From a virus, in the UHGV virus genome UHGV-0182861: DNA of 38,350 bases. One strand, given 5' to 3'. Under the pieces are notes generated by a model that was not told where the DNA came from, made no database searches, and was given only the letters and a program-made list of their open reading frames with translations. Of this stretch, positions 1 through 36,661 are shown piece after piece (the first letter of the stretch is position 1; each line of letters begins with the position of its first letter). The position numbers and the translations under genes are program-made.

Positions 1-235
1 GCTCTGAGCCCTCTCTCCCTAGCTTCCGCTCTTAAGACGGGGATCAAAGAGAGGTCAAACCCAAAAGAGATCGCGTGGATGCCCTGCCTGGGGTTGAAGC
101 GTTAAATCTAATCAGGCTAGTTTGTTAGTGGCGTGTCTGTCCGCAGCTGGCAAGCGAATGTAAAGACTGACTAAGCATGTAGTGCCGAGGATGTAGGAAT
201 TTCGGACGCGGGTTCAACTCCCGCCAGCTCCACCA
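1..235 (+). ncRNA. ssrA: tmRNA (ssrA), 3' portion; 5' end lies outside the window
   Basis: Sequence matches the recalled enterobacterial tmRNA 3' half, including the tag-reading-frame region and the tRNA-like end GGACGCGGGTTCAACTCCCGCCAGCTCCACCA ending near 235; followed by a hairpin terminator. Confidence 0.9.
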
Positions 236-343: not shown

Positions 344-1117
344 TTACAACTTAAAGAGTTTTGCTTGCCCTGGATTAACAGCTTCGACGTAGTTTTTGAC
401 CCCTATTCTGTGCGGCTCATAATTGCTTGAATAGAAATCAATCAGGAAGTCACTCATTTTCTGAGATGTGACTTTCATAACTCCCTTACTCAAAGTTAAA
501 TTAAACACGCTAATCTTTGACGATGGTGCCTGAGTTTTACTCATGTTGGCTTGATAACCAGATTTACGCATTGCCACTAGTGCTTCGTCGTAAGCCGCTT
601 GTAATTGGGCCAAATCGTTTGACGAGATGATCACATCATCCATAAACACACTTAGCTTGAGATCATGATGTTTGTTCAATCGGCGTAGTAAGCTACCAAA
701 ATAACTTTTATCTAAGCAGAGGGTTGCAAGTATTGGAGATTGAACAAAACCAAAAGGGAGGACATGCTTATGTGGACTATGGGACAAGTTTCTTACAGTT
801 GAAAATGTTGAGATTTCCCGCGCTTGAGAATAGGTGAAGTAGCTCTTTAGATCACGGGTGATACGACTACGGCTCGTTGACTGAAAAAATTGTTTAATAT
901 CAACAACGGCAAAAAAATCACTTTTTAAGTGTAATCTGGCAGCTTTAAGATGCCCACCAGTTCTTAGATGGTAAAAATAGAGTGGCGGAATCCACTTGTT
1001 TCTGACAGCCTGAAGTATCTTCCCTCCGACTTTACGTGCCTCAACGCTTGGGACATAAACCCAAACCCCGGGCTTAATCTCAAATTTATCTTCCCACCTT
1101 TGAACTTCTATTGTCAT
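344..1117 (-). CDS. Reverse transcriptase, compact retron-like (257 aa)
   Basis: Translation shows RT motifs: FFAVVDIKQFFQS (motif 1/2 with catalytic D), LPFGFVQSPILATLCL (motif B'), SVFMDDVII (Y/FxDD box) and G-Y-Q-A-N-M-S-K-T (motif D/E-like). About 40% GC versus about 53% for phage core. Poor SD; start overlaps upstream ORF by 32 nt. Confidence 0.75.
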   Translation of the reverse strand: MTIEVQRWEDKFEIKPGVWVYVPSVEARKVGGKILQAVRNKWIPPLYFYHLRTGGHLKAARLHLKSDFFAVVDIKQFFQSTSRSRITRDLKSYFTYSQAREISTFSTVRNLSHSPHKHVLPFGFVQSPILATLCLDKSYFGSLLRRLNKHHDLKLSVFMDDVIISSNDLAQLQAAYDEALVAMRKSGYQANMSKTQAPSSKISVFNLTLSKGVMKVTSQKMSDFLIDFYSSNYEPHRIGVKNYVEAVNPGQAKLFKL

Positions 1118-8808: not shown

Positions 8809-9375
8809 TCAGGGGGATTCATTGCTCTTATTTGCCGGAAATTTTCTATAAATGGTAGAAACGCCTACATCAAAAATCAGTGCAATACGCTGTCTTGATT
8901 CTCCGGCCTCGAGTAAACGCCCAATCTGTGCCCACTGTTCGGTGGTCAACTTAGGACGGCGTCCACCTACTCTGCCTTTGGCACGAGCTGCAGCCAGCCC
9001 TGCCATGGTACGTTCAACTATCAGTTCGCGTTCCATTTCAGCCAGGACCCCTATGACATGAAAAAAGAAACGGCCCATTGGGGTGCTGGTATCAATACTG
9101 TCAGTCAGGCTTCGGAAATTCACGCCACGCTGACGCAACTCTTCTATCAGTGTAACAAGATGCCGCATACTGCGCCCCAACCTGTCCAGCTTCCAGACAA
9201 CCAGAGTGTCTCCTGCCGATAGTGTCCTGAGCAGTTTTTTAAGCCCCGGTCTGTCGGACTTAGTGCCACTGATTTTATCCTCAAAAATCCGCTCACATCC
9301 CGCGCAGTTCAGTGCATTACGTTGCAAATCGGTGTTCTGGTCATTTGTTGACACGCGTACATAGCCAATAAGCAT
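8809..9375 (-). CDS. Serine DNA invertase (Gin/Hin/Cin/Pin family)
   Basis: MLIGYVRVSTNDQNTDLQ...GDTLVVWKLDRLGRS...C-terminal HTH; start trimmed to MLIGY with SD AGGGGA upstream. Confidence 0.9.
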   Translation of the reverse strand: MLIGYVRVSTNDQNTDLQRNALNCAGCERIFEDKISGTKSDRPGLKKLLRTLSAGDTLVVWKLDRLGRSMRHLVTLIEELRQRGVNFRSLTDSIDTSTPMGRFFFHVIGVLAEMERELIVERTMAGLAAARAKGRVGGRRPKLTTEQWAQIGRLLEAGESRQRIALIFDVGVSTIYRKFPANKSNESP

Positions 9376-9430
9376 GATCAATCCCCTGAATAAAAACCGT
9401 GGATGATGCCAGTTAGCCATTATCTCTGCA

Positions 9431-9456
9431 TTTTCATAAACGTTGGTTTAGGAGAA
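9431..9456. repeat. Invertase crossover site, left (inverted copy)
   Basis: Reverse complement ttctcctaaaccaacgtttatgaaaa matches 21 of 26 positions of the site at 11307..11332; both resemble gix/hix dyad half-sites around a central AA. Confidence 0.7.
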
Positions 9457-9801
9457 GCGGCGAAAAGGGATGTGGGCACAGGAGATAATCAGATACCGGA
9501 TATGGGAGCATTCGCTTCTGGTTCGGGATGGTTCAGGCTACCAGGTGGATATATTGTTCAGTTTGGCACTTTTTCAGGAAACACGACCCGCTTTATCAGT
9601 GGACACTTCCCTATACCATTCCCTAATCAGCCGATGGTTTCAGTCAGTGTTATGTCTGATGCCGTTCAGTCAGACCCGTCGAATCCTGCCCCGCAGGTTT
9701 TGTCTGTAAATTTTGAACATATCAGTAATTCAGCGTGGCGTGTGGCAACCAGTGATATCTCACAGCAATACAGATTCAGTTATATTTCGATAGGACGGTA
9801 G
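9457..9801 (+). CDS. Alternative tail-fiber C-terminal segment (H'), promoterless, expressed only after inversion
   Basis: In frame through the crossover site; both H and H' encode G-L-G-E at the site, as expected for Mu S/S'-type switching. Confidence 0.65.
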   Translation, partial: AAKRDVGTGDNQIPDMGAFASGSGWFRLPGGYIVQFGTFSGNTTRFISGHFPIPFPNQPMVSVSVMSDAVQSDPSNPAPQVLSVNFEHISNSAWRVATSDISQQYRFSYISIGR

Positions 9802-9803
9802 AA

Positions 9804-10244
9804 ATGCAGAAATATATTTTCAGTGCCGATAAAAATGCGTTTTTCCCTGTGGAGCTTAAAATCGCTTATCAGGAATCCGGCGAATGGCCCGATGATGGAA
9901 TCGAAATTGACGACACTGTTGCCGCCGAATTTATGAAGGAAGCACCAGAAGGAAAATACAGATGTGTCATCGACGGAATGCCTGCATGGATTGATATTCC
10001 ACCGCCAACTCATGAGGAACAAATTGCCGCAGCCGAACTGGAAAAGCAGCAATTGATTAATCAGGTCAACGAATACATAAACAGTAAGCAATGGCCTGGT
10101 AAAGCAGCGATTGGTCGCCTGAAAGGTGAGGAACTGGCGCAATATAATTTGTGGCTGGATTATCTGGACGCACTGGAACTGGTTGATTCCTCCAGTGCTC
10201 CAGATATTGAATGGCCTACGCCTCCGGCAGTTCAGGCCAGATGA
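9804..10244 (+). CDS. Alternative tail-fiber assembly chaperone (G')
   Basis: 146-aa ORF immediately after H'; C-terminal region (LWLDYLDALELVDSSSAPDIEWPTPP) parallels gpG C-terminus (LNAVLDYIDAVTATDTSTAPDVIWPELP). Confidence 0.7.
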   Translation: MQKYIFSADKNAFFPVELKIAYQESGEWPDDGIEIDDTVAAEFMKEAPEGKYRCVIDGMPAWIDIPPPTHEEQIAAAELEKQQLINQVNEYINSKQWPGKAAIGRLKGEELAQYNLWLDYLDALELVDSSSAPDIEWPTPPAVQAR

Positions 10245-10818
10245 CATCCGGTGCGGTGCTGGTATCTGTTGCCGTCACCGCGTCAATGTAATCCAGCACG
10301 GCGTTAAGTCGGGTTGTTTCTGCCTGCGTCAGCTTCCGCCCGGCCCGTAATTTCAGTTGAATCAGACTGATGGAAGCCATTGCTGCATCAATCAGTGACT
10401 GGCGCTGTGCTTCTGCCGCTTCTACTGCGGCGCTATGCTGTGCCTCAGTATCCGTCACCCATTTCTCACCATCCCATTTATCATATGGCGTTAACGGGGC
10501 GATAGTGGTTGTATTTTCAGGGTAATCACCCGGAGCTGTGATTTCTTTCGATTCTCCTGTTTCGGTGCTATAGATGATTTCACCGCGATGGTCTGGTACA
10601 TATTCCCATGAGTTAAAATCTGCAGAACGGCAGATTGCATAACCAGCTTTATGTGTAACTGGTGCATCTAAACAAGAACATGCCGGGATACCGACGCCAA
10701 CGGCAAGATATTCTGTTGATGATGAAATGTATTCCCGTGTCGTGTTGTCATAGTTATAGACGGTAATATCACCCGCTACTGTGGCAATAAATTCACTGTT
10801 TAATTTTGCCTGTGTCAT
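10216..10818 (-). CDS. G: Tail fiber assembly protein gpG
   Basis: 200-aa ORF directly downstream of H with 1-nt overlap. Confidence 0.85.
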   Translation of the reverse strand: MTQAKLNSEFIATVAGDITVYNYDNTTREYISSSTEYLAVGVGIPACSCLDAPVTHKAGYAICRSADFNSWEYVPDHRGEIIYSTETGESKEITAPGDYPENTTTIAPLTPYDKWDGEKWVTDTEAQHSAAVEAAEAQRQSLIDAAMASISLIQLKLRAGRKLTQAETTRLNAVLDYIDAVTATDTSTAPDVIWPELPEA

Positions 10819-22574: not shown

Positions 22575-23299
22575 TGCCCCCAATCCCAACTAACCTCATG
22601 ACTATCGCGGGACTTCCGGTGGATAGCTCTTTCTTTGCTTACCAGTATGAGTGGAACACTAGCCCAAAGAGTAGAAACCGTGTACTCACAAAAATGCGCC
22701 AGGCAGGCGCGAATTTCTTTTTTTCCTATGAAGCCCTGAACGATGCACTGCATACCGGGCGTAACCAGATTTTCCTCTGCTGCAGCACAGCATCTGCCCT
22801 GACAGTCAAAACCTATATGTCAGCCTTTATAGATCAGGCCGCAACCTGGACACACCTTGGGAAAATAAAATCAGGTAAAGCGCATCTGGAACTACCTAAC
22901 GGTGCGGTCATTTATTTTATCGGGCCGAAAAGTCTCGCCGCCGCGCTCCATGGAAACGTCTATGTGTCAGAGTATGCCTGGGCGGACTCCCCGAAAAATA
23001 TGATTGCGCTCGCCAAAAGCCTGTCCATGCACGCGCGCTATCACGCTACCTACTACACCACCCCAAGCCCCAGCCCGGAAGCATGGCGGGAATACAAGAA
23101 GCTGATTGCCCGCAACAGCACAACCAGCATGATTTTTACCGCTGATGACGCTGCAGCATCCGGGGCAACGCTCGCAACCGGAGCCGCGCTCTTTGATGAT
23201 GAATGGCTTAATGACATGAAAAAAGAGTTATCAGCAGAGGACTGGAAAATGCTGTTTATGTGCGAATGGCCCCAGACTGACAAGGAGCAGGCGGCATGA
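22571..23299 (+). CDS. Terminase ATPase-domain paralog (242 aa), inserted between P and Q
   Basis: Aligns to gpP residues about 145-400 (FAYQYEW/FNYQRHW, RQAGANFFFSYEALNDALHTGRNQIFL / RQIGATFYFAREALIDALLTGRNQIFL, TYYTTPS / TYFSTPS, LFMCEW / LLMCEF) but lacks the gpP N-terminal domain and the C-terminal nuclease; start overlaps P stop (TGATG), stop overlaps Q start (ATGA). Confidence 0.75.
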   Translation: MMPPIPTNLMTIAGLPVDSSFFAYQYEWNTSPKSRNRVLTKMRQAGANFFFSYEALNDALHTGRNQIFLCCSTASALTVKTYMSAFIDQAATWTHLGKIKSGKAHLELPNGAVIYFIGPKSLAAALHGNVYVSEYAWADSPKNMIALAKSLSMHARYHATYYTTPSPSPEAWREYKKLIARNSTTSMIFTADDAAASGATLATGAALFDDEWLNDMKKELSAEDWKMLFMCEWPQTDKEQAA

Positions 23300-24336
23300 G
23301 CAAACGTAAAAACAAGAATAACCGCGCAGCAGTAGATCACAACGCAAATTCAGGCGGTGCTGCGGCAGAGGCGTTCAGCTTTGGCGACCCGGTGCCGGTG
23401 TTAGACCGACGCGAATTGCTGGACTACGTGGAATGCGTGCAGATGGATCGCTGGTATGAACCGCCGGTGAGCTTTGACGGACTGGCGCGGACCTATCGCG
23501 CCGCCGTGCATCACAGCTCACCGATTGCCGTTAAGCGTGACATTCTCAGCAGTACCTATATCCCGCACCGCCTGCTCAGCCAGCAGGCTTTTGCCCGTTT
23601 CGTCCAGGATTATCTGGTGTTCGGTAACGCCTATCTGGAAAAGCGCACCAACCGGCTCGGCAGCGTTCTCTCGCTGGAGCCAGCACTGGCGAAGTACACA
23701 CGGCGCGGCGTGGATCTCGACACCTACTGGTTTGTGCAGTATGGCATGACCACGCAGCCCTATGAATTTACGCAGGGCAACATCTTTCATCTGCTGGAAC
23801 CGGATATTAATCAGGAGATTTACGGGCTGCCCGGCTATCTCTCCGCCATCCCGTCAACCCTGCTCAACGAGTCAGCAACGCTGTTTCGCCGGAAGTATTA
23901 CATCAACGGCAGCCACGCGGGTTTCATCATGTACATGACCGACGCAGCACAGAATCAGGAGGACGTGAACAATATCCGCCAGGCAATGAAAAGCGCCAAA
24001 GGGCCGGGCAACTTCCGCAACCTGTTTATGTATTCGCCCAACGGTAAAAAGGACGGCATCCAGATAATCCCGTTGTCGGAAGTTGCGGCAAAGGATGAAT
24101 TTCTGAACATCAAGAACGTGAGCCGTGATGACATGATGGCTGCTCACCGCGTGCCGCCGCAGATGATGGGCATCATTCCCAACAATACCGGCGGCTTTGG
24201 TGATGTGGAAAAGGCCAGCCGCGTCTTTGTCCGCAACGAGCTGATGCCGCTGCAGAAGCGACTGCAGGAGCTTAACGACTGGCTGGGCGAAGAAGTGATC
24301 CGCTTTGAGCCCTACACCTTAGATATTGAAAACTAA
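23296..24336 (+). CDS. Q: Portal protein gpQ
   Basis: 346-aa product aligns with recalled P2 gpQ (FSFGDPVPVLDRRELLDYVEC...ATLFRRKYY...VFVRNEL). Confidence 0.95.
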   Translation: MSKRKNKNNRAAVDHNANSGGAAAEAFSFGDPVPVLDRRELLDYVECVQMDRWYEPPVSFDGLARTYRAAVHHSSPIAVKRDILSSTYIPHRLLSQQAFARFVQDYLVFGNAYLEKRTNRLGSVLSLEPALAKYTRRGVDLDTYWFVQYGMTTQPYEFTQGNIFHLLEPDINQEIYGLPGYLSAIPSTLLNESATLFRRKYYINGSHAGFIMYMTDAAQNQEDVNNIRQAMKSAKGPGNFRNLFMYSPNGKKDGIQIIPLSEVAAKDEFLNIKNVSRDDMMAAHRVPPQMMGIIPNNTGGFGDVEKASRVFVRNELMPLQKRLQELNDWLGEEVIRFEPYTLDIEN

Positions 24337-24344
24337 TACAGAGA

Positions 24345-24360
24345 GCGCTTTGCAAAGCGC
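24345..24360. terminator. Bidirectional hairpin terminator between convergent Q and the TIR gene
   Basis: Perfect 16-nt palindrome gcgctttgcaaagcgc with T-rich flanks on both strands. Confidence 0.6.
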
Positions 24361-24370
24361 CCTCTAATTT

Positions 24371-25804
24371 TCATTCAATACTATCTAGACGACTAACATT
24401 CATTTTATTGAGAAAGTCTCTATTAAAACCGAAATGATACCAGTTACTAGTATTTCGCTGGGCCTCACCCTCTGTCAGCTTTTGAGCCAAAAGTTTACTG
24501 TCATCGATTCCGGTAATAACTGCAATACTCTTGAATCCTCTATGCTGTATTGCTCTTGTAAATAGAGGATATTTCTCATAGTGCCCGGAATACAACAACA
24601 TTTGCGGGTACCAAAAAATACCGGGATTAATGAAGGATATCATAAGAGCAACAAGATCAGCTTGTTTCAAATCATCGAAAGACACATCATCTCTAGTTGC
24701 ACTTTGCTTTACTAACTCAGCAACAGGGGAATACAGTCGATAGTTTTCAGGGGACAATTTACTTTGAAGGTAATCAGAGCTTAAATATAACTCACTGTAA
24801 TTAGCAAACTCCATTCCCGGACTGGTTATATGATCGGGTAGCAAATAAGATGTATGCAGTAATGTATGTACATGCTGGAAAGCTTCAATTTTTATTAAAG
24901 CCGCCAAAATATATAAAAACGTTTCATACGCAAAAATCTGATGGGGCAAAAACCATATTTCATTATATGAATTTACATTTTTCGGACGATTTCTAATCGC
25001 TAACATTACTTCCATAAACTGTAATAGTGCTTTGGAAAAGTCTTCGCCCTGCGTATCACCCTCAAGTAAAACCCAGTCTGTAATGGCATCCCTAACGGCA
25101 ATAAGCTCTTTATGAATTTGCAAAACTTCCGCTGCAAAATCTTCAGTAGTTGGGTTTGTTACGACTTGTAGTGAGATACAATAATTTCGGCACACCTCTA
25201 AAAATTGCCTTCTGCAATCCTTTAATGTCTGCTTTTGATTTAAGACAGCTGATTTTAAAGTTTGAAATTTTGCATGAATTTCATACGTCGGTTTTGACGT
25301 GTCTTGCTCTAAATAAACCGGAGGCTTACCTAATGGTGGCTTAGTAAATTCTGGTTTTCCATAAAGCAACCTGATTAAACGTTCCCAATTATCATTTTCT
25401 TTTTCTGGTGTTGAAAAATCAATATAGATTCTAGACTTCAGAAAGATTGGAGTATACGGCTCTCCATTATCTTTGTACTCAAATATTAATGGTATAAATT
25501 TGGACTGCGACACGGATGAATATATTTCCTGGGAAATTATCATCGACTCAACACCGACACCATCTTTTCTTAAATCGGCTTTTTCTGAGTATTTTTTATC
25601 ACAAATGACTAAAACATGCGTAACCGTTTCATCTTGAACCATTCTTTCCATGTAATAATTTTTATCATCCCCTTCTTTCAAGTCATAAATATCTATGACA
25701 GTTTCAACTCCATCTGCCGCCAATCGTTCAGCCATATCTTTGATATGTTGCTGATGAGTTTTACTTGACCAACTATAGGATATAAAAACTTTTGGCTGGA
25801 TCAT
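24371..25804 (-). CDS. TIR-domain protein with about 330-aa uncharacterised C-terminal domain (477 aa); candidate anti-phage effector
   Basis: N-terminus KVFISYSWSS...VETVIDIYDL...VLVICDKKY...GVGVESMIISQE follows the bacterial TIR pattern (FISYS strand, conserved Glu in GV-x-V-E). Strong SD AGGGAGG and own promoter. About 33% GC versus about 53% for phage core. Confidence 0.7.
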   Translation of the reverse strand: MIQPKVFISYSWSSKTHQQHIKDMAERLAADGVETVIDIYDLKEGDDKNYYMERMVQDETVTHVLVICDKKYSEKADLRKDGVGVESMIISQEIYSSVSQSKFIPLIFEYKDNGEPYTPIFLKSRIYIDFSTPEKENDNWERLIRLLYGKPEFTKPPLGKPPVYLEQDTSKPTYEIHAKFQTLKSAVLNQKQTLKDCRRQFLEVCRNYCISLQVVTNPTTEDFAAEVLQIHKELIAVRDAITDWVLLEGDTQGEDFSKALLQFMEVMLAIRNRPKNVNSYNEIWFLPHQIFAYETFLYILAALIKIEAFQHVHTLLHTSYLLPDHITSPGMEFANYSELYLSSDYLQSKLSPENYRLYSPVAELVKQSATRDDVSFDDLKQADLVALMISFINPGIFWYPQMLLYSGHYEKYPLFTRAIQHRGFKSIAVITGIDDSKLLAQKLTEGEAQRNTSNWYHFGFNRDFLNKMNVSRLDSIE

Positions 25805-25883
25805 CCTCTGCCTCCCTTAGGTTTGATGTTTGATTTATATGACAAATATTTTAACAAGTCTAGGGGTTTACCTGTTGCGCGCG

Positions 25884-25902
25884 CTCGTATCCCCGCCACG
25901 CC
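25884..25902 (-). other. Putative cos cohesive-end site
   Basis: Minus-strand GGCGTGGCGGGGATACGAG resembles the recalled 19-nt cohesive ends of P2 (GGCGAGGCGGGGAAAGCAC) and 186 (GGCGTGGCGGGGAAAGCAT). Confidence 0.5.
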
Positions 25903-26106
25903 TGCCCGCTTTATGTAGTGGTTTTCATGCACCTGCATGATCTACGCAAAAGCCCACCAGTTCTGGCGGGCCTTAGCAAAAACGATCCTCAAACGATCAT
26001 GCGATCTCATGCGGCATAGACATGCACTACAGAGCTAACGCCTCGCAAGGGCTCGTTGTTCAACCTTGCTGACGCCAGAAACAAGTTCAGACGCCAGCAA
26101 CGTTTC

Positions 26107-26340
26107 TTAATGCAGCCAGCTGTCGTCTTCCCACACCTTCTGCATAATTTCCATTACCCGCTGCTTATCCTCATCAAGTTTTAAGCCGGTCAACTCGATA
26201 CCGTTGGCACTGCCTTTGCGAATGCGGATCGCCGTCTTGGGATACAGGGGGCGCAGATTGCGGTAAAGCTCGGATTCAAGGGCGTCCAGGGTAGACTGGC
26301 TAATCTTCTGCTCTTTATCGATCATTATTTCAATGCGCAT
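26107..26340 (-). CDS. DinI-family protein (77 aa)
   Basis: Trimmed to MRIEIMIDKEQ... with SD GAGGTGA; resembles recalled DinI (MRIEVTIAK...EILQETWE). Confidence 0.75.
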   Translation of the reverse strand: MRIEIMIDKEQKISQSTLDALESELYRNLRPLYPKTAIRIRKGSANGIELTGLKLDEDKQRVMEIMQKVWEDDSWLH

Positions 26341-26350
26341 AAAAGTCACC

Positions 26351-26539
26351 TCAGCTGATGACATCCATTGAGCGGTTGTATTCGTGAGTTCTGATTTTTG
26401 CCATGAGTTCATCTGTCAGTTCAGAAACCCACTGCAAAGCCAGCCCCTTCTCTTCATCACTACACTCACTAGCCGCTACAAGCTTAAGAAAAAAATCAAT
26501 GCGCTGGAGCTTCAAAGACTCCAAAAAATAGTCCTGCAT
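26351..26539 (-). CDS. Small protein upstream of DinI-like gene; possible Tum-like antirepressor N-terminal module (62 aa)
   Basis: Trimmed from the 96-aa track ORF because a LexA box and promoter lie inside its N-terminal extension; strong SD GGAGGAAAG before the internal ATG. Confidence 0.5.
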   Translation of the reverse strand: MQDYFLESLKLQRIDFFLKLVAASECSDEEKGLALQWVSELTDELMAKIRTHEYNRSMDVIS

Positions 26540-26692: not shown

Positions 26693-29107
26693 TTAATACA
26701 GGTTTCGCCACTTATCATCTTCCTGCAAACGCTGGTTCCGACAGAAGATACGCAGGCCTGCTCCTGACGGAATACTGCCACCGCGAAGGAGCAGATCGAC
26801 CTCTTTCTCGCTGCCATCAAATCCTCTTGACTTCAGTTCATAGACGAGCTGCTGTCGCTGATGGTCTGTAATTCGCTGTTTGTAGTCTTTACGCCGTTTC
26901 GGTTTCACCAGGCGTAACCTTGCAGCCAGTTCCCGGCGCTCTTTTTTGCTCATACTGTGCAGGTAATCGTGCAACTCCTTGTCATCCATGCGGGTAATGT
27001 CCGTCCTGGTATCCCCATCAGCTGATTTGTCTTTCCCTTGTTGGTTCAAATTTTCAGCAAGGGGACAGTTATTGCCACGAGTCCAAGGGGCGCAAGCGCC
27101 CTGGTCGGCTGCCGCCTCCTGAACGTCAACGGCCTTACGAACCATTTTCCACTTCACGGCATGAGTGCAGATCTTGCCCTCTGCAATAGGTGACCAGATG
27201 CCATAAATACGAATGCCGTGATCGCCATAGGCGGTCGGCTCTTCGTTGATTTCATAAGCAGTTCTGATGAGGTGATATTTACGGGGAACCAGTACGCCGC
27301 CCTGCTTCATGATGTAGGTGGCAAAACAACCAGCATCAGCAGCAGCCAGGATTGCATCAAGGCGCGGGTTATCCAGTACCGGCGCACCTGCTTTTTTGTC
27401 ACCCTGTTGCCTTGCCGCCTGACCAGCCAGCAATCGCAGTTCACGGTAAGCCTGACGCCCCGGAATGCCAAAGAAGCGGAATTGCTGAACACGATGCAGA
27501 GACGCCCAGGCATTCACGTATTCAGCGTTATCACGCAGGGATTTACCCGTTTCCTTGCTGATCTCGCCAGCCAGACCACGCCCGTCAATGTTCTTACTGA
27601 TATATTTCGCGATGTAGCTTGTCGGCGTTCCTTTGCGCGGGTTAATCAACTCAGACTTAAAGCGTGGTCCCGTGTTATTCCCCAGCTCCTCGCGGTCTTC
27701 ACGAATGGCAAACTTACGCAACAAAGCAGTAATGGCGCGGCGATCTTTTTTGCGCATAAAACACAACAGGTGCCAGTGAACTGTACCGTCATGATGCGGC
27801 TCAGCCACCCGCACGCCATACCAGCGCAATCCGGCTTTGTGCATCGCCTTACGAAATGCAGCAAACATGCCAACCAGATAATCACTGCTTTGTCTTACCG
27901 TCGCATTTGTCCAGGTCGGGTTGGGCCTGCCGTTATTTAGCGTGGAATGGAAACGTGACGGACAGGTGATGGTGTAGAAAACGGCGCAGTCACCGCGCAT
28001 TTCCGCGATAAGCTCCAGGCCTTTAACACAGGCCATCATCTCATTGCGGCGATGCGCAGGGTTGCTGCTGCTGGCGTTTACCACATCCTCCATGTCCAGC
28101 GTGTCGCCGTCTTCGTTCACCAGTTCATGAGAACGGAAAAACTCCAGCGACTTACGGCGCTGCTCACGTTTATGCATCACGGCTTCATAGCTGACATAGG
28201 GAGATGCTTTTTTGCTGACCAGACAGACAGCACGCAACTGCTCTTCCCGCCATTCGCAACGCATCTTCCATAATTTCCGATACCACCAGTCGGCGCACAG
28301 CATACGCGCCAGCGAACCCGGAATGAGTTCATAGGGCACAGGTTTGCGGCGGTTTCTTTTCCGGCGGAGTTGCTCAAACGCAGGCGGTATGACATCCAGT
28401 CGCAGGGTTTCTGCTGCCACCTTTTCCCATGTCTTGCGGATTTCTTCCGGCTTAACATCATCGGAGGCGTACAAATCACCACAAGCGGCATCAAGACACA
28501 TGCTCATATGCGCAGCGACAAGGGTGGACAGGCGTTTCACCTGATCCTGACTCATTTCAGGCAGGCTCAGCAGACCGTCCAGCCCTTCATGGCTTGCCAT
28601 AAAACGAAAAGATGCAGATAGCTGGCTGTCGCGTACATGCTCCAGTCGTTCCAGGCATGGCTTAATCGTCTCACGCAAATAGCGGGAATAAGCCTTTGGC
28701 CTGCCCAGGTTGCTGAAGTATTTAATACGTTGCATCAGCGGCTTGCTGATATGGGAAGGCTGGGCGTTGACATCCGCCAGAATGACCATGTCTGGATTAA
28801 AACGCTGCTGCTCATGCGCCAGCTTTGCCCGGCTAATTAGCTTATCCTGCTCCATTTCGCGCTGGACAGGATCACGGGATTCATTAAAGAAATAACGCTC
28901 CCAGACCTGATCACTCAGTGCCTCGCGGCGCAGTTGTTCCTGCTCGTTATCGGCAGCGTACAGAGTGATCAGGTTTGAAAGCGCAGAAACCGGCGCAACT
29001 TCCGCCGGGTCCAGATAAGGGTTAATGGCCTTTTTCGGGCTGTTCCATGAGAATGCTGCGGCAGCCTCGTTAAAGCCGCAGCAGTTGTTCATATCGGCAT
29101 GGCTCAT
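26693..29107 (-). CDS. A: Replication initiation protein gpA (rolling-circle endonuclease)
   Basis: 804-aa product in the P2/186 A position with an HUH-like motif (VHWHLL) and downstream catalytic tyrosines (YIAKYISK). Confidence 0.9.
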
Positions 29108-29961
29108 GCACGTACTCCGTACACGGCAGAACTGTCCACGCCACGCGAATAATCAAATCCCACCCAGCAGCGCGGCCCGGAAACAGCAATGATTTCTGTT
29201 GCTGATTTACCCTCTCCAGCTGCCACACCGATGTTGCGTTTTGCCTTGATGTAGTGGTGAGTAAAATTGCGATACAGCGAACGGATCAGGGATGTGTCAC
29301 TGTTAGAAACAATGACCGGATGTCCTTCTGATGACCGATGTTCAAGAACGGATGCCAGGTGATACTGGTCATCTTCAGTGAAGCCGTCAGTGTGATAACC
29401 GGAAAACGTGCCGTCATACGGCGGATCGCAATACACCACATCCCCCGCCTTCAACATCGCCAGCGTTTCATCAAAGCTGGCGCAGATAAACGTTGCCCGC
29501 TGGGCTTTTTCTGCAAATGCGCGAATTTCTTTTTCAGGGAAATACGGATTTTTATAATTACCGTAGGGAATGTTGAAATGCCCGCTCTTGTTATAGCGAC
29601 ATAAACCACGGTAACCGTGACGATTGAGATACAGGAAATATACCGCTTTCATGAAATCAGTAATTTCAGTGGAGTAATTAAACTCCTGCCTTATGTTGTA
29701 ATAAGCCACCTCCCTGTTTGCGATCTCAAATAAAACTCTGGCGCGAGATATAAACGATTCACAATCAGCGGCAACCTTTTTATAGAGGTTGATTAAATCA
29801 GGATTAATATCCGCAACCAGATAGCTGGGGTAATCCGTCTCCATCATCACAGCACAGGAACCCGCGAAAGGTTCAACCAGTCGCGGGCCAGCAGGAAGGT
29901 GTTTTTTCAGTTCGGACATAATGGCGGTTTTATTTCCCGCCCATTTCAGGATGGTGCTCAT
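29104..29961 (-). CDS. dam: DNA adenine methyltransferase (Dam family)
   Basis: Trimmed to [11 protein letters not shown]; contains the DPPY catalytic motif and FAGSCAV SAM-binding motif; start overlaps upstream stop (ATGA). Confidence 0.85.
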
Positions 29962-30185
29962 ACAGCACCTCCGTTGTAATGTTTGCCTTTCAGCTCTGCG
30001 ATTTCCTGACAGGTAATGCAAAGCTGCACACCTGGAATGGCGCGGCGGCGTGCTGGCGGAATTGGCGCTTCACACTCAATGCAAAGCACGCGGGACACGC
30101 CCGGCGTTTTGGCACGGGCAGCACGAATATGGCGCTGGCGTTCTTCTTCAACGCGCTGCTGTACAAGATCCATTGCATCAGCCAT
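29958..30185 (-). CDS. C4 zinc-finger protein (TraR/DksA family)
   Basis: 75 aa with CIECEAPIPPARRRAIPGVQLCITCQ four-Cys motif. Confidence 0.75.
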   Translation of the reverse strand: MADAMDLVQQRVEEERQRHIRAARAKTPGVSRVLCIECEAPIPPARRRAIPGVQLCITCQEIAELKGKHYNGGAV

Positions 30186-32542: not shown

Positions 32543-33556
32543 ATGACCATCAGAAAACAGCCGAACGGAAAGTGGTTATGTGAATGCTACCCAAACGGGC
32601 GAGATGGCAAACGCGTACGCAAACAATTTGCGACGAAAGGCGAAGCCATTGCGTTTGAGAATTTCACCATGGACGAGGTAAACAAGAAACCTTGGCTGGG
32701 AGAAAAGGAAGATCGGCGACACCTATCAGAATTAATTGAGCTGTGGTATTCCCTGTATGGTCAAACACTCGCAGACCCCAAGCGACTCATGGCGAAACTT
32801 GGAATTATCTGTAATGGTCTGGGCGATCCCATCGCTTCAGAGCTGACTGCCGGTGACTTTACGAAATACCGCGAAGCACGGCTAAAAGGTGAAGTGCGAA
32901 ATGAAGATGGCACGCTGATGTCGCCCGTTAAGCCCCGCACGGTAAACCTTGAACAGCGCAATCTATCATCTGTGTTCGGTACATTAAAAAAACTAGGACA
33001 CTGGTCAGCACCAAACCCGCTGGCAGGACTTCCGACCTTCAAAATTGCCGAAGGTGAGCTGGCTTTTCTTTCCACGGACGAAATCAAGCGCCTGTTGGCG
33101 GCATGTGCTGAATCTCAAAGCCCTAGCTTACTAATGATTGCAAAAATATGCCTGGCTACTGGCGCACGGTGGAGTGAAGCCGAAAATCTGCAGGGCCATC
33201 AAATATCGAAATACCGAATTACTTATACAAAAACAAAAGGCAAGAAAAACCGTACTGTGCCGATATCTCAGGATCTGTATGATGAACTCCCCAAAAACAG
33301 AGGAAAGTTATTCACGCCATGCAGAAAAGCCTTTGAGCGGGCAGTAAAGCGGGCCGGTATTGACCTACCGGAGGGCCAATGCACCCACGTGCTTCGCCAT
33401 ACATTCGCCAGTCACTTTATGATGAACGGCGGAAACATACTGGTACTGCGTGATATTTTGGGTCATGCCGATATAAAAATGACCATGATTTACGCCCACT
33501 TTTCGCCCGATCACCTTGAAGACGCGGTGACTAAAAATCCTCTTTATAATTTGTAG
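32543..33556 (+). CDS. int: Tyrosine integrase (P2/186 Int family)
   Basis: 337 aa with C-terminal catalytic motifs (R...HVLRHTFASHFMMNGG...LGHADIKMTMIYAHF) directly downstream of cI. Confidence 0.9.
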   Translation: MTIRKQPNGKWLCECYPNGRDGKRVRKQFATKGEAIAFENFTMDEVNKKPWLGEKEDRRHLSELIELWYSLYGQTLADPKRLMAKLGIICNGLGDPIASELTAGDFTKYREARLKGEVRNEDGTLMSPVKPRTVNLEQRNLSSVFGTLKKLGHWSAPNPLAGLPTFKIAEGELAFLSTDEIKRLLAACAESQSPSLLMIAKICLATGARWSEAENLQGHQISKYRITYTKTKGKKNRTVPISQDLYDELPKNRGKLFTPCRKAFERAVKRAGIDLPEGQCTHVLRHTFASHFMMNGGNILVLRDILGHADIKMTMIYAHFSPDHLEDAVTKNPLYNL

Positions 33557-33568
33557 TGGAGACCTATT

Positions 33569-35089
33569 GTGATTCAAAAATTAGATATTCAATCTGATGC
33601 GGTTGCAAAGTTAAGAATGGATGCTATTCGTTCAGAAATCCAAGGTTATTCCCCTGATTTATTTATCGAATTCTGTATGCAATATAACTTACAAAAATTT
33701 GAAGATAATATCCACATGTTACGACACATGCCTTGGATTGTTAATTTATGTCTAAAGTGGTCTGCGTCAGTAACTGGCAAGAATAAAAAATTCAAAATCC
33801 TCGATAAAAATCAAGCAATAAAACTCTTCCAAAAAACTTATGAAACCTTGAACATTATTCCTATCGGTCTTGAGAGGAAGAATGGCATGCATTTCTTCAT
33901 TAGAAATAATCTATACCAACAAGGAATCTACCAGAAAATTGACGCTCTAAACACAATTAGCAGACAAGTCTTTCTATTTTCAGAACTTGAAAAAAACCAT
34001 AAAATAAAGACAAGTTTTTTTACTATCACGAATGTATCTATCGAAGACTTTCTTAAGCTATCTTACATATTAATAACTCACATAACAGAAGAGCATCCCG
34101 TGAGAAAAATGAATGTAGATACATTTACTATATTATTTGACATCATTCCTAGAAATACCATTGAGAAATTTCTTGATGCAATATCAATAAATTACAATGA
34201 ACTATCTACATTTTGCAAATCAAAAACCTATGATAAACCTTTGCTTGAATACTACTCATCATCACCTTTTCTTGAAAAACCATTAATAAAAAAAGGTTCA
34301 GAGTATTTTCAGATACACACACAACTGACTTCAACAAGCATACAGACGTTCATATATGATCTTTTAAGAAGAACTGATGCCGAGAAGTTCATGGATAGCT
34401 TTGGAAATGTATTTGAAAATGCACTGGAATTAATACTAAAAGAAAGCGAAATTGATTTTCATAACGAAAAACACCTTAAAGAACGACTACCTAAAGATAA
34501 TAAAGTAGTTGATTATTTCATTCCACATACTGAGGCAAATATTTTCATTGATGCTAAAGGCGTTGAGATACACCAAAAAGGCATGGTAACATTACGCCCT
34601 GAGGATATTGCAGGAAAAATAAAGAAATCGGTATTAAAAGCAATCGAACAATCTCACGAAGTTAATCGAGAAATATACTCTAATGAGCGAATAATAGCTC
34701 CATTCAGGGCTAACTCATATATCATTTGCATTACATATAAAAACCTTTTCTTAGGCAATGGTAGTATCCTAGCTAATACTTATGCTAAAGATGAGATGAA
34801 TAAGATATATGACAAGTTTAAACATAACTATCATATCCCTACAGAGAATATTTTTTGTCTATCATTTGAAGAGTTTGAATATCTCATTGCATCATGCAAA
34901 AGGTTTAAAATTCCGCCTCATGAAGTCTTGCAATCTGCAGTTGAAAAGAACAAAAAACCATCAAGTGCTGCTTTCCTATTTTCCCACCATATAGAAGACT
35001 ATTTTGATAGAGTAGTCAATTCAGTCATAGTCAATGAGGCAGGCATTAAAATGGTAGATTCTATTATCAATAAATTAAAGCCTGAATAA
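33569..35089 (+). CDS. Orphan 506-aa protein, AT-rich; possible PD-(D/E)xK nuclease-like motif
   Basis: GTG start 12 nt after int stop with SD GGAG; about 30% GC; segment VVDYFIPHTEANIFIDAKGVE fits a D...(D/E)xK pattern by eye; no other recognised motif. Confidence 0.55.
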   Translation: MIQKLDIQSDAVAKLRMDAIRSEIQGYSPDLFIEFCMQYNLQKFEDNIHMLRHMPWIVNLCLKWSASVTGKNKKFKILDKNQAIKLFQKTYETLNIIPIGLERKNGMHFFIRNNLYQQGIYQKIDALNTISRQVFLFSELEKNHKIKTSFFTITNVSIEDFLKLSYILITHITEEHPVRKMNVDTFTILFDIIPRNTIEKFLDAISINYNELSTFCKSKTYDKPLLEYYSSSPFLEKPLIKKGSEYFQIHTQLTSTSIQTFIYDLLRRTDAEKFMDSFGNVFENALELILKESEIDFHNEKHLKERLPKDNKVVDYFIPHTEANIFIDAKGVEIHQKGMVTLRPEDIAGKIKKSVLKAIEQSHEVNREIYSNERIIAPFRANSYIICITYKNLFLGNGSILANTYAKDEMNKIYDKFKHNYHIPTENIFCLSFEEFEYLIASCKRFKIPPHEVLQSAVEKNKKPSSAAFLFSHHIEDYFDRVVNSVIVNEAGIKMVDSIINKLKPE

Positions 35090-35336: not shown

Positions 35337-35431
35337 GTCTATTGTCGTCTAGTGAGAATTGCTGAGAATCACGAGTTATGGCACCCTGAATGGGACCCAA
35401 GACAAAGGGTCCAAAAATCGAGGGTCCCAAA

Positions 35432-36661
35432 ATGGCAAAGATCGCGAAGAAACTCACCGACACAGAAATCAAAAACACCAAGCCAGCAGACAAAGAAGTC
35501 AACTTGTTTGACGGGGATGGCTTGATTCTACGAATCTCTCCCCTCTCAACAGGTGGGAAAAAAAATTGGTATTTCAGGTATTCAGTGCCAGTGAGCAAGA
35601 AAAGAACCAAGATGAGCCTTGGGACCTACCCTCACCTTACCCTGGCAAGAGCAAGAGCCTTGCGTGATGAATACCTCTCCTTGCTTGCGAATGGCACGGA
35701 CCCTCAAGTCCATAACAACGATAAAGCTAATGCATTAAAGAATGCCACAGAACACATATTACAAGCCGTGGCGAGAAAATGGTTGGATGAGAAGGTAAAG
35801 ACCTCTGGCATCTCACAAGACCATGCAGAAGACATCTGGCGGAGCCTTGAACGAAATATTTTCCCCGGTCTGGGTAATGTGCCAATCAATGAGATCCGTC
35901 CCAAGCTCTTAAAGCAGCATCTTGATCCAATTGAACAACGAGGAGTACTGGAAACTTTGCGGCGGCTAATTTCCAGGTTGAATGAAATCTTCCGTTGGGC
36001 GGCTACAGAAGAGCTGATTGAATTTAACCCCGCAGATAATCTAGGCCAACGTTTCAGTAGGCCTAAAAAACAGAATATGCCTGCCTTACCCCCCTCTGAA
36101 CTCCCTCGTTTTCTGGCAGCACTGAACAATGCTTCTGTCCGTTTAGAAACAAGACTATTGATTGAATGGCAACTTCTCACATGGGTTCGCCCTGGTGAAG
36201 CAGTCCGCGCAAGATGGTCTGATATAGATATGGATAACAGCATGTGGAACATCCCGGCTGAATTTATGAAGATGAAAAAACCTCATAAGGTCCCATTAAG
36301 CAAAGAATCTCTTCGGATACTCAAGTCTATGGAATCAATCAGTGGGCACCGAGAGTGGGTATTTCCCAGCATAAAGGCTCCCTTAAATCATATGCATGAA
36401 CAAACAGCCAATGCAGCAATTATCCGTATGGGCTTTGGAGGTGAACTTGTTGCCCACGGAATGCGATCTATTGCAAGAACGGCAGCGGAAGAGTCAGGTA
36501 AGTTCAGGACAGATGCCCTTGAAGCGGCCCTTGCCCACTCAAAAAAAGACGAAATTATCGCTGCATATAATCGTGCGGAATATATTACCGAACGAGTAGC
36601 TCTCATGCAGTGGTGGGGAGATTATGTCCTGGCACAACAGCTTAAAATTTTTGCTGCTTAA
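35432..36661 (+). CDS. Tyrosine integrase, P4/CP4-57 IntA type
   Basis: Trimmed to MAKIAKKLTDTEIKNTKPADKEVNLFDGDGLILRI (typical P4-family N-terminus) with SD GAGGG; C-terminal catalytic region HGMRSIARTAA...LAHS...AYNRAEY. Confidence 0.85.
   Translation: MAKIAKKLTDTEIKNTKPADKEVNLFDGDGLILRISPLSTGGKKNWYFRYSVPVSKKRTKMSLGTYPHLTLARARALRDEYLSLLANGTDPQVHNNDKANALKNATEHILQAVARKWLDEKVKTSGISQDHAEDIWRSLERNIFPGLGNVPINEIRPKLLKQHLDPIEQRGVLETLRRLISRLNEIFRWAATEELIEFNPADNLGQRFSRPKKQNMPALPPSELPRFLAALNNASVRLETRLLIEWQLLTWVRPGEAVRARWSDIDMDNSMWNIPAEFMKMKKPHKVPLSKESLRILKSMESISGHREWVFPSIKAPLNHMHEQTANAAIIRMGFGGELVAHGMRSIARTAAEESGKFRTDALEAALAHSKKDEIIAAYNRAEYITERVALMQWWGDYVLAQQLKIFAA

What the first reader, a model, noticed from the sequence alone, without database searches (positions are those of the whole stretch)
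24371..25870. Stand-alone 477-aa TIR-domain gene in the cos-proximal defence hotspot
An AT-rich (about 33% GC) moron with its own promoter and strong SD sits between cos and the portal gene Q, converging on Q at a palindromic terminator. Its N-terminal 150 aa carry a bacterial TIR signature (KVFISYSWSS, VLVICDKKY, GVGVESMII with a candidate catalytic Glu); the remaining 330 aa match nothing I recognise. It is too long for ThsB and there is no ThsA, CBASS cyclase or NLR-like partner nearby, so it looks like a single-gene TIR effector with a built-in sensor domain. The A-to-Q interval is the established P2 hotspot for anti-phage cargo (tin/old locus).
Basis: partly seen in the sequence, partly recalled or inferred. 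Interest (0 to 1): 0.8.

Follow-up and report, generated by a model that had tools for sequence, protein, structure and literature searches.

The report
Known SEFIR anti-phage gene in P2 prophage
The gene is real and almost certainly an anti-phage defence gene, but it belongs to the already described single-gene "SEFIR" family that starves infected cells of NAD+, and it sits in a known cargo slot of P2-like prophages, so it is ordinary rather than new.

Summary
A 477-aa ORF (24371..25804, minus strand, 36% GC against 53-55% in the flanks) lies between the cos site (25884..25902) and the portal gene Q, and it converges on Q at a bidirectional hairpin terminator.

SEFIR is a published single-protein defence system (Millman 2022) that depletes NAD+ through its N-terminal domain.

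Near-identical copies are already deposited and named "SEFIR domain protein" in Klebsiella and E. coli P2-like phages. The arrangement "hypothetical + TIR_2/SEFIR + DinI" is listed in Rousset 2022, Table S5A.

The same slot holds Lamassu, an AIPR/AbiU gene or nothing in near-identical phages.

What is still open is the C-terminal all-alpha domain. It is confidently modelled, resembles no specific known fold, and occurs only fused to SEFIR/TIR domains. Its trigger is unknown.

The parts
24371..25804 (-). SEFIR defence gene, 477 aa plus stop codon
   Evidence: ORF. PADLOC bSEFIR E 9.6e-103, residues 3-471. PHROG 11745 E 2.5e-223. More than 1200 homologues, the best 120 of which are nearly all full length at about 475-480 aa.
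25331..25795 (-). N-terminal SEFIR (TIR-superfamily) domain, residues 4-158, the presumed NADase effector; includes invariant D38 and E86 (GVGVE)
24374..25294 (-). C-terminal all-alpha domain, residues 171-477, specific to this family; presumed sensor or regulator
25811..25817 (-). Shine-Dalgarno sequence AGGGAGG, 6 nt upstream of the ATG
   Evidence: Read directly from the sequence.
25834..25862 (-). Candidate promoter TAGACT-17 nt-TATAAA inside the cassette (unverified)
   Evidence: Manual reading. It was not reported by the consensus scan. It is inferred to be needed because a terminator-like hairpin and cos separate the gene from the early operon.
24339..24366 (.). Bidirectional hairpin terminator shared by the SEFIR gene and the portal gene Q
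   Evidence: 12-pair stem, -18.1 kcal/mol on the minus strand and -13.4 on the plus strand, z about -4.2 on both.
25884..25902 (-). cos cohesive-end sequence GGCGTGGCGGGGATACGAG
   Evidence: Single match in the window, 0.01 expected by chance. It aligns with the annotated cosR and cosL ends of P2. The same sequence occurs in all related loci.
24337..25873 (.). Exchangeable cassette: everything between the conserved cos flank (...GAGCGCGCGCAAC) and the stop codon of Q
   Evidence: Alignment with the empty locus of E. coli APEC O18. The junction falls just after the shared ...GAGCGCGCGC flank (within 4 nt) in loci carrying SEFIR, AIPR/AbiU, Lamassu or nothing.
25949..25974 (-). Terminator-like hairpin downstream of the DinI-like gene and upstream of cos; it insulates the cassette from the early operon
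   Evidence: -22.9 kcal/mol, z -3.8. In the APEC O18 locus a T-to-C change turns the one G-U pair of the stem into G-C.
23296..24336 (+). Portal gene Q (the convergent neighbour)
   Evidence: Pfam Phage_portal 3.1e-19.
26107..26412 (-). DinI-like gene on the A side of cos (context, not part of the cassette)
   Evidence: Pfam DinI 2.5e-24. PHROG 189.

Best explanation
The gene encodes a member of the bacterial SEFIR (bSEFIR) single-protein anti-phage defence family. It is carried as an exchangeable cassette in the cos-to-Q slot of a Klebsiella/E. coli-type P2-like prophage.

The proposed mechanism has four steps.

1. In the lysogen the gene is expressed from within its own cassette. This is inferred: the gene is insulated from the early operon by a hairpin and by cos, and from Q by a bidirectional terminator.

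2. The C-terminal all-alpha domain holds the protein inactive until it detects some component or consequence of infection by another phage. This is also inferred, and the trigger is unknown.

3. The N-terminal SEFIR domains then self-associate and cleave NAD+ into ADP-ribose and nicotinamide. The activity is shown for the family in Bacillus. The self-association step is inferred from the D40A interface mutant and from what is known of TIR enzymes. Invariant D38 is the candidate SEFIR-SEFIR interface residue, and invariant E86 in the GVGxE loop is the candidate catalytic residue.

4. NAD+ depletion aborts the infection. The rest of the lysogen population survives, and the resident prophage survives with it.
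For: Family membership:
- PADLOC bSEFIR matches at E 9.6e-103 over residues 3-471.
- Both halves match the same model separately, at 9.6e-82 and 3.8e-16.
- The Pfam SEFIR hit is stronger than the TIR_2 hit and is N-terminal. This is the inclusion rule the discoverers used.

Published mechanism for the family:
- The SEFIR protein of Bacillus sp. NIO-1130 defends against phage phi29, and the D40A mutant loses defence.
- The cleavage products are ADP-ribose and nicotinamide.
- SEFIR also showed anti-phage activity, with a narrow range, when tested in S. thermophilus.

Conservation:
- D38 and E86 are invariant in 78 close homologues and in 63-66 distant ones.

Single-gene status:
- The cassette holds only this ORF.
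- Homologues in Pseudomonas, Ekhidna and Vibrio have unrelated neighbours.
- The C-terminal domain occurs essentially only fused to SEFIR/TIR_2: 63 of 77 proteins scanned, with no other effector domain found.

Hotspot cargo:
- The gene lies between gpA and gpQ, next to cos, the hotspot defined by Rousset 2022.
- The same slot carries Lamassu in phages 98.7% identical in backbone, AIPR/AbiU in another relative, or nothing.
- A homologue only 49% identical occupies the same position next to the portal gene in Hafnia P2-like prophages.
Against: - Nothing here is experimental for this particular protein.
- I could not obtain the sequence of the validated Bacillus sp. NIO-1130 protein, so the link to it runs through the PADLOC family model and the discoverers' inclusion rule, not through a direct alignment.
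- The C-terminal match maps 300 residues onto only 186 profile positions. That half of the family is therefore divergent, and this clade could sense a different trigger.
- The GVGVE loop that carries E86 is the least confident part of the N-terminal model, with pLDDT below 50. Its catalytic role is assigned by conservation only.
- No promoter passed the consensus scan.
- The sensor role of the C-terminal domain is pure inference. It resembles no known ligand-binding or protein-binding fold.
Confidence: 0.85

Rival explanations
1. The protein is a signalling TIR-like enzyme, like Thoeris ThsB. On this view the SEFIR domain makes a cyclic-ADPR-type second messenger that activates an effector encoded elsewhere, rather than depleting NAD+ itself.
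Against: No ThsB model appears among the PADLOC hits. There is no partner gene in the cassette and no conserved neighbour in any of the contexts examined. The family is reported to deplete NAD+ to ADP-ribose and nicotinamide, and NARP1 overcomes it.
Confidence: 0.05
2. The SEFIR domain is only a protein-protein interaction or oligomerisation module, as in IL-17 receptors and Act1. On this view the toxic or defensive activity resides in the C-terminal alpha-helical domain.
For: Before 2022, bacterial SEFIR domains were proposed to be general interaction modules (cited). The defence-killing D40A mutation was chosen as an interface residue, not a catalytic one. The C-terminal domain is large, conserved and of unknown fold.
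Against: Later work attributes NAD+ depletion to the N-terminal SEFIR domain. E86 in the GVGxE motif is invariant across the whole family. The C-terminal domain has no enzymatic signature in Pfam or PDB.
Confidence: 0.05
3. The gene serves the prophage in some way other than defence against other phages, or it is inert, decaying cargo.
For: Not all cargo in the gpA-gpQ hotspot is defensive; partition systems and toxins also occur there. This allele has not been tested.
Against: The ORF is intact and has the family's standard length. It is 98-99.6% identical across E. coli and Klebsiella phages. All family-invariant residues are kept. The alternative occupants of the slot are recognised defence systems.
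Confidence: 0.04

Closest known systems
SEFIR (bSEFIR) single-gene defence system; type member from Bacillus sp. NIO-1130 (Millman et al. 2022; PADLOC model PDLC03957)
   Same: Both have an N-terminal SEFIR domain followed by a C-terminal region that matches the same family model. Both are single genes with no partner. The family's invariant Asp and Glu are present. The discoverers' family list includes E. coli and Klebsiella genomes.
   Different: The host is enterobacterial rather than a Firmicute, and the gene is carried by a P2-like prophage. The C-terminal half aligns to the family profile only with many insertions. This allele's target phages and trigger are untested.
Bacillus cereus F65185 SEFIR domain, crystal structures 5Y8E and 5Y8F (Yang et al. 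2018)
   Different: Only the isolated domain was crystallised, and no function was assigned at the time. The closest Bacillus-type relatives found here are short, 144-264 aa, and are too short to carry a full 310-aa C-terminal domain.
TIR-domain NADase defence effectors (TIR-SAVED, TIR-STING, SpbK, SARM1-type TIRs)
   Different: This domain belongs to the SEFIR branch rather than the TIR branch. There is no SAVED, STING, NTPase or cyclic-nucleotide-sensing module. The fused domain is an all-alpha domain found only in this family.
P2 old/tin and other cargo of the cos-proximal gpA-gpQ hotspot (Rousset et al. 2022)
   Same: It lies in the same hotspot and follows the same logic of an exchangeable, AT-rich, self-contained defence moron. 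The arrangement 'hypothetical + TIR_2/SEFIR + DinI' is already listed in their Table S5A.
   Different: In P2 itself, old and tin lie on the A side of cos. This cassette lies on the Q side and begins about 11 nt after the 19-nt cohesive end. SEFIR was not among the systems that study tested.

Membership tests
SEFIR / bSEFIR single-gene defence system | An N-terminal SEFIR domain whose SEFIR hit is stronger than its TIR hit (the discoverers' inclusion rule) | tested here: met
SEFIR / bSEFIR single-gene defence system | A full-length match to the family profile, including the region C-terminal to the SEFIR domain | tested here: met
   PADLOC PDLC03957 matches at E 9.6e-103, residues 3-471. The C-terminal 312 aa alone match at E 3.8e-16 on profile positions 195-380 of 412.
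SEFIR / bSEFIR single-gene defence system | Acts alone, with no conserved partner gene | tested here: met
   The cassette contains one ORF. Neighbours differ in the Pseudomonas, Ekhidna and Vibrio homologues. This shows the lack of a conserved partner gene, not functional autonomy.
SEFIR / bSEFIR single-gene defence system | The conserved Asp needed for defence (D40 in the Bacillus protein, a SEFIR-SEFIR interface residue) | tested here: inconclusive
   D38 is invariant in 78 close and 63 distant homologues and aligns with the Asp of ILDRW in BcSEFIR.
SEFIR / bSEFIR single-gene defence system | Protects against phage and depletes NAD+ during infection | not testable with these tools
   Known only for other family members.
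Thoeris (ThsB TIR protein plus ThsA effector) | A ThsB-type TIR protein with an adjacent ThsA (SIR2/SLOG or TM/Macro) effector gene | tested here: not met
   No ThsB or ThsA model appears among the PADLOC hits. The neighbours are the portal gene, a DinI-like gene, a small PHROG-698 gene and gpA.
TIR-NLR / Avs-type STAND defence proteins | A central STAND NTPase domain with C-terminal repeats | tested here: not met
   No NTPase domain was found in Pfam or PADLOC. The protein is 477 aa. The C-terminal model is an all-alpha domain with no NTPase among its structural matches.
Cargo of the P2 cos-proximal defence hotspot (Rousset 2022) | Located between gpA and gpQ next to cos, with content that varies among otherwise near-identical phages | tested here: met
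   Position. Variability: 1288 E. coli genomes share the flanks but only 7 carry SEFIR. Loci that are empty or carry AIPR/AbiU or Lamassu break at essentially the same junction.

The most novel reading that the evidence does not exclude
The C-terminal 310-aa all-alpha domain may be a phage-sensing module with a previously undescribed fold. The enterobacterial, P2-borne clade is only 46-50% identical to most of the family, with a C-terminal half that fits the family profile loosely. It may therefore recognise a different trigger from the Bacillus type member, or regulate the NADase in a different way. Because this allele sits in a phage of E. coli and Klebsiella, it would be a tractable model for finding what SEFIR systems sense.
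Probability: 0.3. Interest if true: 0.4.

Novelty: already known. Interest (0 to 1): 0.15.

Why it matters
For genome annotation, this locus should be labelled as a SEFIR (bSEFIR) abortive-infection defence cassette in the P2 cos-proximal hotspot. It should not be called a new TIR system.

It is a clean example of cassette exchange at a fixed junction about 11 nt beyond the cohesive end. Phage backbones 98.7% identical to this one carry Lamassu in that slot, and more distant P2-like relatives carry SEFIR, AIPR/AbiU or nothing.

The wider open question is not specific to this window: what the family-specific C-terminal domain senses. No solved structure matches that part by sequence, and no paper in the library searched describes a trigger.

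Tried and rejected
(1) A direct comparison with the experimentally validated Bacillus sp. NIO-1130 protein was not possible. The published Cell Host & Microbe paper is not held. A search seeded with the BcSEFIR domain returned only 16 short Bacillus-type proteins of 87-264 aa and no full-length relative.

(2) The promoter claim was not confirmed. The consensus scan found no sigma-70-like site upstream of the ATG, only three internal ones, fewer than the shuffled expectation. I therefore report only a manual candidate.

(4) I tested whether the C-terminal domain is a portable sensor shared with other effectors. It is not. Among 77 distant relatives, only SEFIR/TIR_2 was found at the N-terminus.

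(5) I considered Thoeris, CBASS/TIR-SAVED and TIR-NLR membership. The only hits were weak N-terminal ones (E about 1e-5) to Aga_TIR and SAVED_TIR models, which reflect the shared TIR fold. I rejected all three.

(6) I looked for non-coding RNA in the cassette. Rfam found none; the only Rfam hit in the window is tmRNA at 1..235.

(7) The 45-aa ORF at 25801..25938, which overlaps the start of the gene and spans cos, is annotated as a hypothetical protein in NC_049454. I treat it as spurious.

Full report
**1. The observation**

The window carries an ATG-initiated ORF of 477 codons at 24371..25804 on the minus strand. Its GC content is 35.9%, and 31% at third codon positions. The convergent portal gene Q (23296..24336) is 55% GC and the replication gene A (26693..29107) is 53%. 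The gene is therefore clearly foreign to its backbone.

A Shine-Dalgarno sequence, AGGGAGG, ends 6 nt before the ATG. Thirty-four bases separate its stop codon from that of Q. These contain a 12-pair palindrome (24339..24366) that folds well on both strands (-18.1 and -13.4 kcal/mol, z about -4.2) and is called as a terminator in both directions.

The sigma-70 scan found no promoter upstream of the ATG. The best manual candidate is TAGACT-17-TATAAA at 25834..25862.

**2. Position relative to cos**

The sequence GGCGTGGCGGGGATACGAG occurs once in the window, at 25884..25902 on the minus strand, with 0.01 matches expected by chance. This sequence and the roughly 50 nt on its A side align with the annotated right end of P2, up to and including the 19-nt cohesive end. 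The bases that follow resemble the start of P2's left end.

In P2 itself, old and tin are on the other, A-proximal, side of cos.

A strong hairpin (25949..25974, -22.9 kcal/mol, z -3.8) follows the DinI-like gene and precedes cos. In the E. coli APEC O18 locus a T-to-C change turns the one G-U pair of its stem into G-C. With cos, this hairpin separates the cassette from the early operon. That is why I infer a promoter inside the 69 nt upstream of the ATG.

**3. An exchangeable cassette**

I aligned the region with an "empty" E. coli locus (APEC O18). Identity is perfect through ...GGATACGAGCGCGCGCAAC, stops at about 25873, and resumes only inside the 3' end of Q.

Of 5426 complete E. coli genomes, 1288 share the flanks. 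Only 7 carry this gene, at 98% identity, and there PGAP names it "SEFIR domain-containing protein".

Other relatives hold different cargo at the same place:
- An AIPR/AbiU gene in E. coli 02B17CRGN002.
- Lamassu LmuA+LmuB in Klebsiella phages, whose backbone is 98.7% identical to the window over 24 kb.

In every case the break falls just after the shared ...GAGCGCGCGC flank, within 4 nt.

The A-to-Q interval is the cos-proximal hotspot defined by Rousset et al. 2022. Their Table S5A already lists the arrangement "hypothetical + TIR_2/SEFIR + DinI", with the same flanking proteins WP_001154434 and WP_001217575 that I see in the E. coli loci.

Near-identical genes are deposited in Klebsiella phage ST15-OXA48phi14.1 (99.6%, annotated "SEFIR domain protein") and in Escherichia phage 500465-1 (99.0%).

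**4. What the protein is**

Pfam finds an N-terminal SEFIR domain (E 1.5e-14, residues 4-143) and, slightly weaker, TIR_2 (E 2.7e-13).

PADLOC matches the whole protein to its bSEFIR model at E 9.6e-103, residues 3-471. Split in two, the N-terminal 165 aa score 9.6e-82 and the C-terminal 312 aa score 3.8e-16 against the same model.

**5. The family**

More than 1200 database clusters match. The best 120 are 46-89% identical, nearly all full length at about 475-480 aa, and come from many phyla.

Scoring the C-terminal domain alone against 1.84 billion cluster representatives gave 536 hits. The full-length ones are about 470-490 aa, with the domain starting near residue 170-190. Of 77 of these scanned with Pfam, 63 carry TIR_2 and 60 carry SEFIR, and none carries another effector domain. 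This is a fixed two-domain architecture, not a shuffled sensor.

D38 and E86 (in GVGxE) are invariant both in the close set and in the distant set.

Homologues in Pseudomonas cichorii, Ekhidna and Vibrio stand among unrelated neighbours, so there is no conserved partner gene. A Hafnia homologue only 49% identical occupies the same position next to the portal gene of a P2-like prophage. P2-like phages have therefore acquired or kept SEFIR genes repeatedly.

**6. How it most likely works**

SEFIR was introduced as a defence system by Millman et al. The single gene from Bacillus sp. NIO-1130 protects B. subtilis against phi29, and the D40A mutant loses protection. Family members were defined as proteins with an N-terminal SEFIR hit stronger than the TIR hit. 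Their list of 460 genomes includes E. coli and Klebsiella.

[quoted passage not shown] A SEFIR gene also showed narrow-range anti-phage activity when tested in Streptococcus thermophilus.

By homology, I propose that the protein in this window is a latent NADase. The C-terminal domain keeps it off until infection is sensed (inferred). SEFIR domains then associate (inferred from D40A and from what is known of TIR enzymes). NAD+ is destroyed and the infection aborts. E86 is a candidate catalytic residue by conservation only, and it lies in the least confident loop of the model.

**7. Rivals**

- A ThsB-like signalling role is unlikely, because there is no partner gene and no ThsB match.
- A purely scaffolding SEFIR domain with a C-terminal effector is contradicted by the published assignment of NADase activity to the SEFIR domain.
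- Decay or a non-defence role is unlikely, given the intact, conserved ORF and the defensive nature of the other cargo found in this slot.

**8. Novelty and verdict**

However, the protein belongs to a characterised family, sits in a characterised hotspot, and is already annotated and catalogued as such. I rate it "already known", with low interest.

The remaining unknown is what the family-specific C-terminal domain senses. That question applies to all SEFIR systems. This enterobacterial allele would simply be a convenient model for answering it.

**9. Limits**

- I could not align this protein directly with the validated Bacillus protein.
- The afdb50 structure library was unavailable.
- No expression or phenotype data exist for this allele.

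Noticed in passing
window 1..235 (+): The 3' part of the tmRNA (ssrA) gene (Rfam RF00023, 148 bits, cut off at its 5' end by the window edge). The P2-like prophage and its neighbours therefore lie next to ssrA, which I recall (not checked here) as a classic integration site.
   Followed up: partly
window 344..1117 (-): A 257-aa reverse transcriptase (Pfam RVT_1, E 2e-21). Its best PADLOC hits are retron-type RT models (RT_VI at 6.6e-18, and many others). It lies between ssrA and the gpD end of the prophage. It may be a second, retron-like, defence gene. No msr/msd RNA was looked for.
   Followed up: partly
window 33569..35089 (+), flanked by 32543..33556 and 35390..36661: A 506-aa ORF with no Pfam or PADLOC match. 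It is wedged between the P2-type integrase and a second, P4-type, integrase (Arm-DNA-bind_3 + Phage_int_M + Phage_integrase). This is an unannotated cargo gene at an integrase-proximal site, possibly on an adjacent island.
   Followed up: partly
window 8809..10818: A Hin/Gin-type serine invertase (Resolvase + HTH_7, 8809..9420) lies next to a tail-fibre assembly gene (10216..10818). Between them (9403..10247) are overlapping ORFs on opposite strands. This looks like an invertible tail-fibre host-range switch.
   Followed up: no
L014 (Klebsiella phage Kp4849-2) 2426..5153; L003 1201..2943; L004 1017..1736: Alternative cargo at the same hotspot. Phages 98.7% identical in backbone carry Lamassu LmuA+LmuB in the cos-to-Q slot. 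An E. coli relative carries an AIPR/AbiU gene there. E. coli JS316 carries SEFIR and also has an extra HNH endonuclease gene on the A side of cos.
   Followed up: yes
L007-L010 (Hafnia P2-like prophages), 3897..5273 in L007 and L008: In the Hafnia P2-like prophages that carry the 49%-identical SEFIR gene, the A-side part of the hotspot holds a 458-aa PAAR-motif protein. In L007 this is preceded by a smaller ORF with a faint PAAR hit. This is unusual cargo for a P2 hotspot.
   Followed up: no
window 25801..25938 (-): A 45-aa ORF runs across the cos site and overlaps the SEFIR start codon. Its counterpart is annotated as a hypothetical protein (gp15) in NC_049454. It is probably an annotation artefact.
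   Followed up: partly
window 29104..30021 (-): A D12-class N6-adenine DNA methyltransferase gene lies immediately upstream of gene A in the early operon (Pfam, E 1.5e-76). The same gene is seen in the related Klebsiella and Hafnia phages.
   Followed up: no
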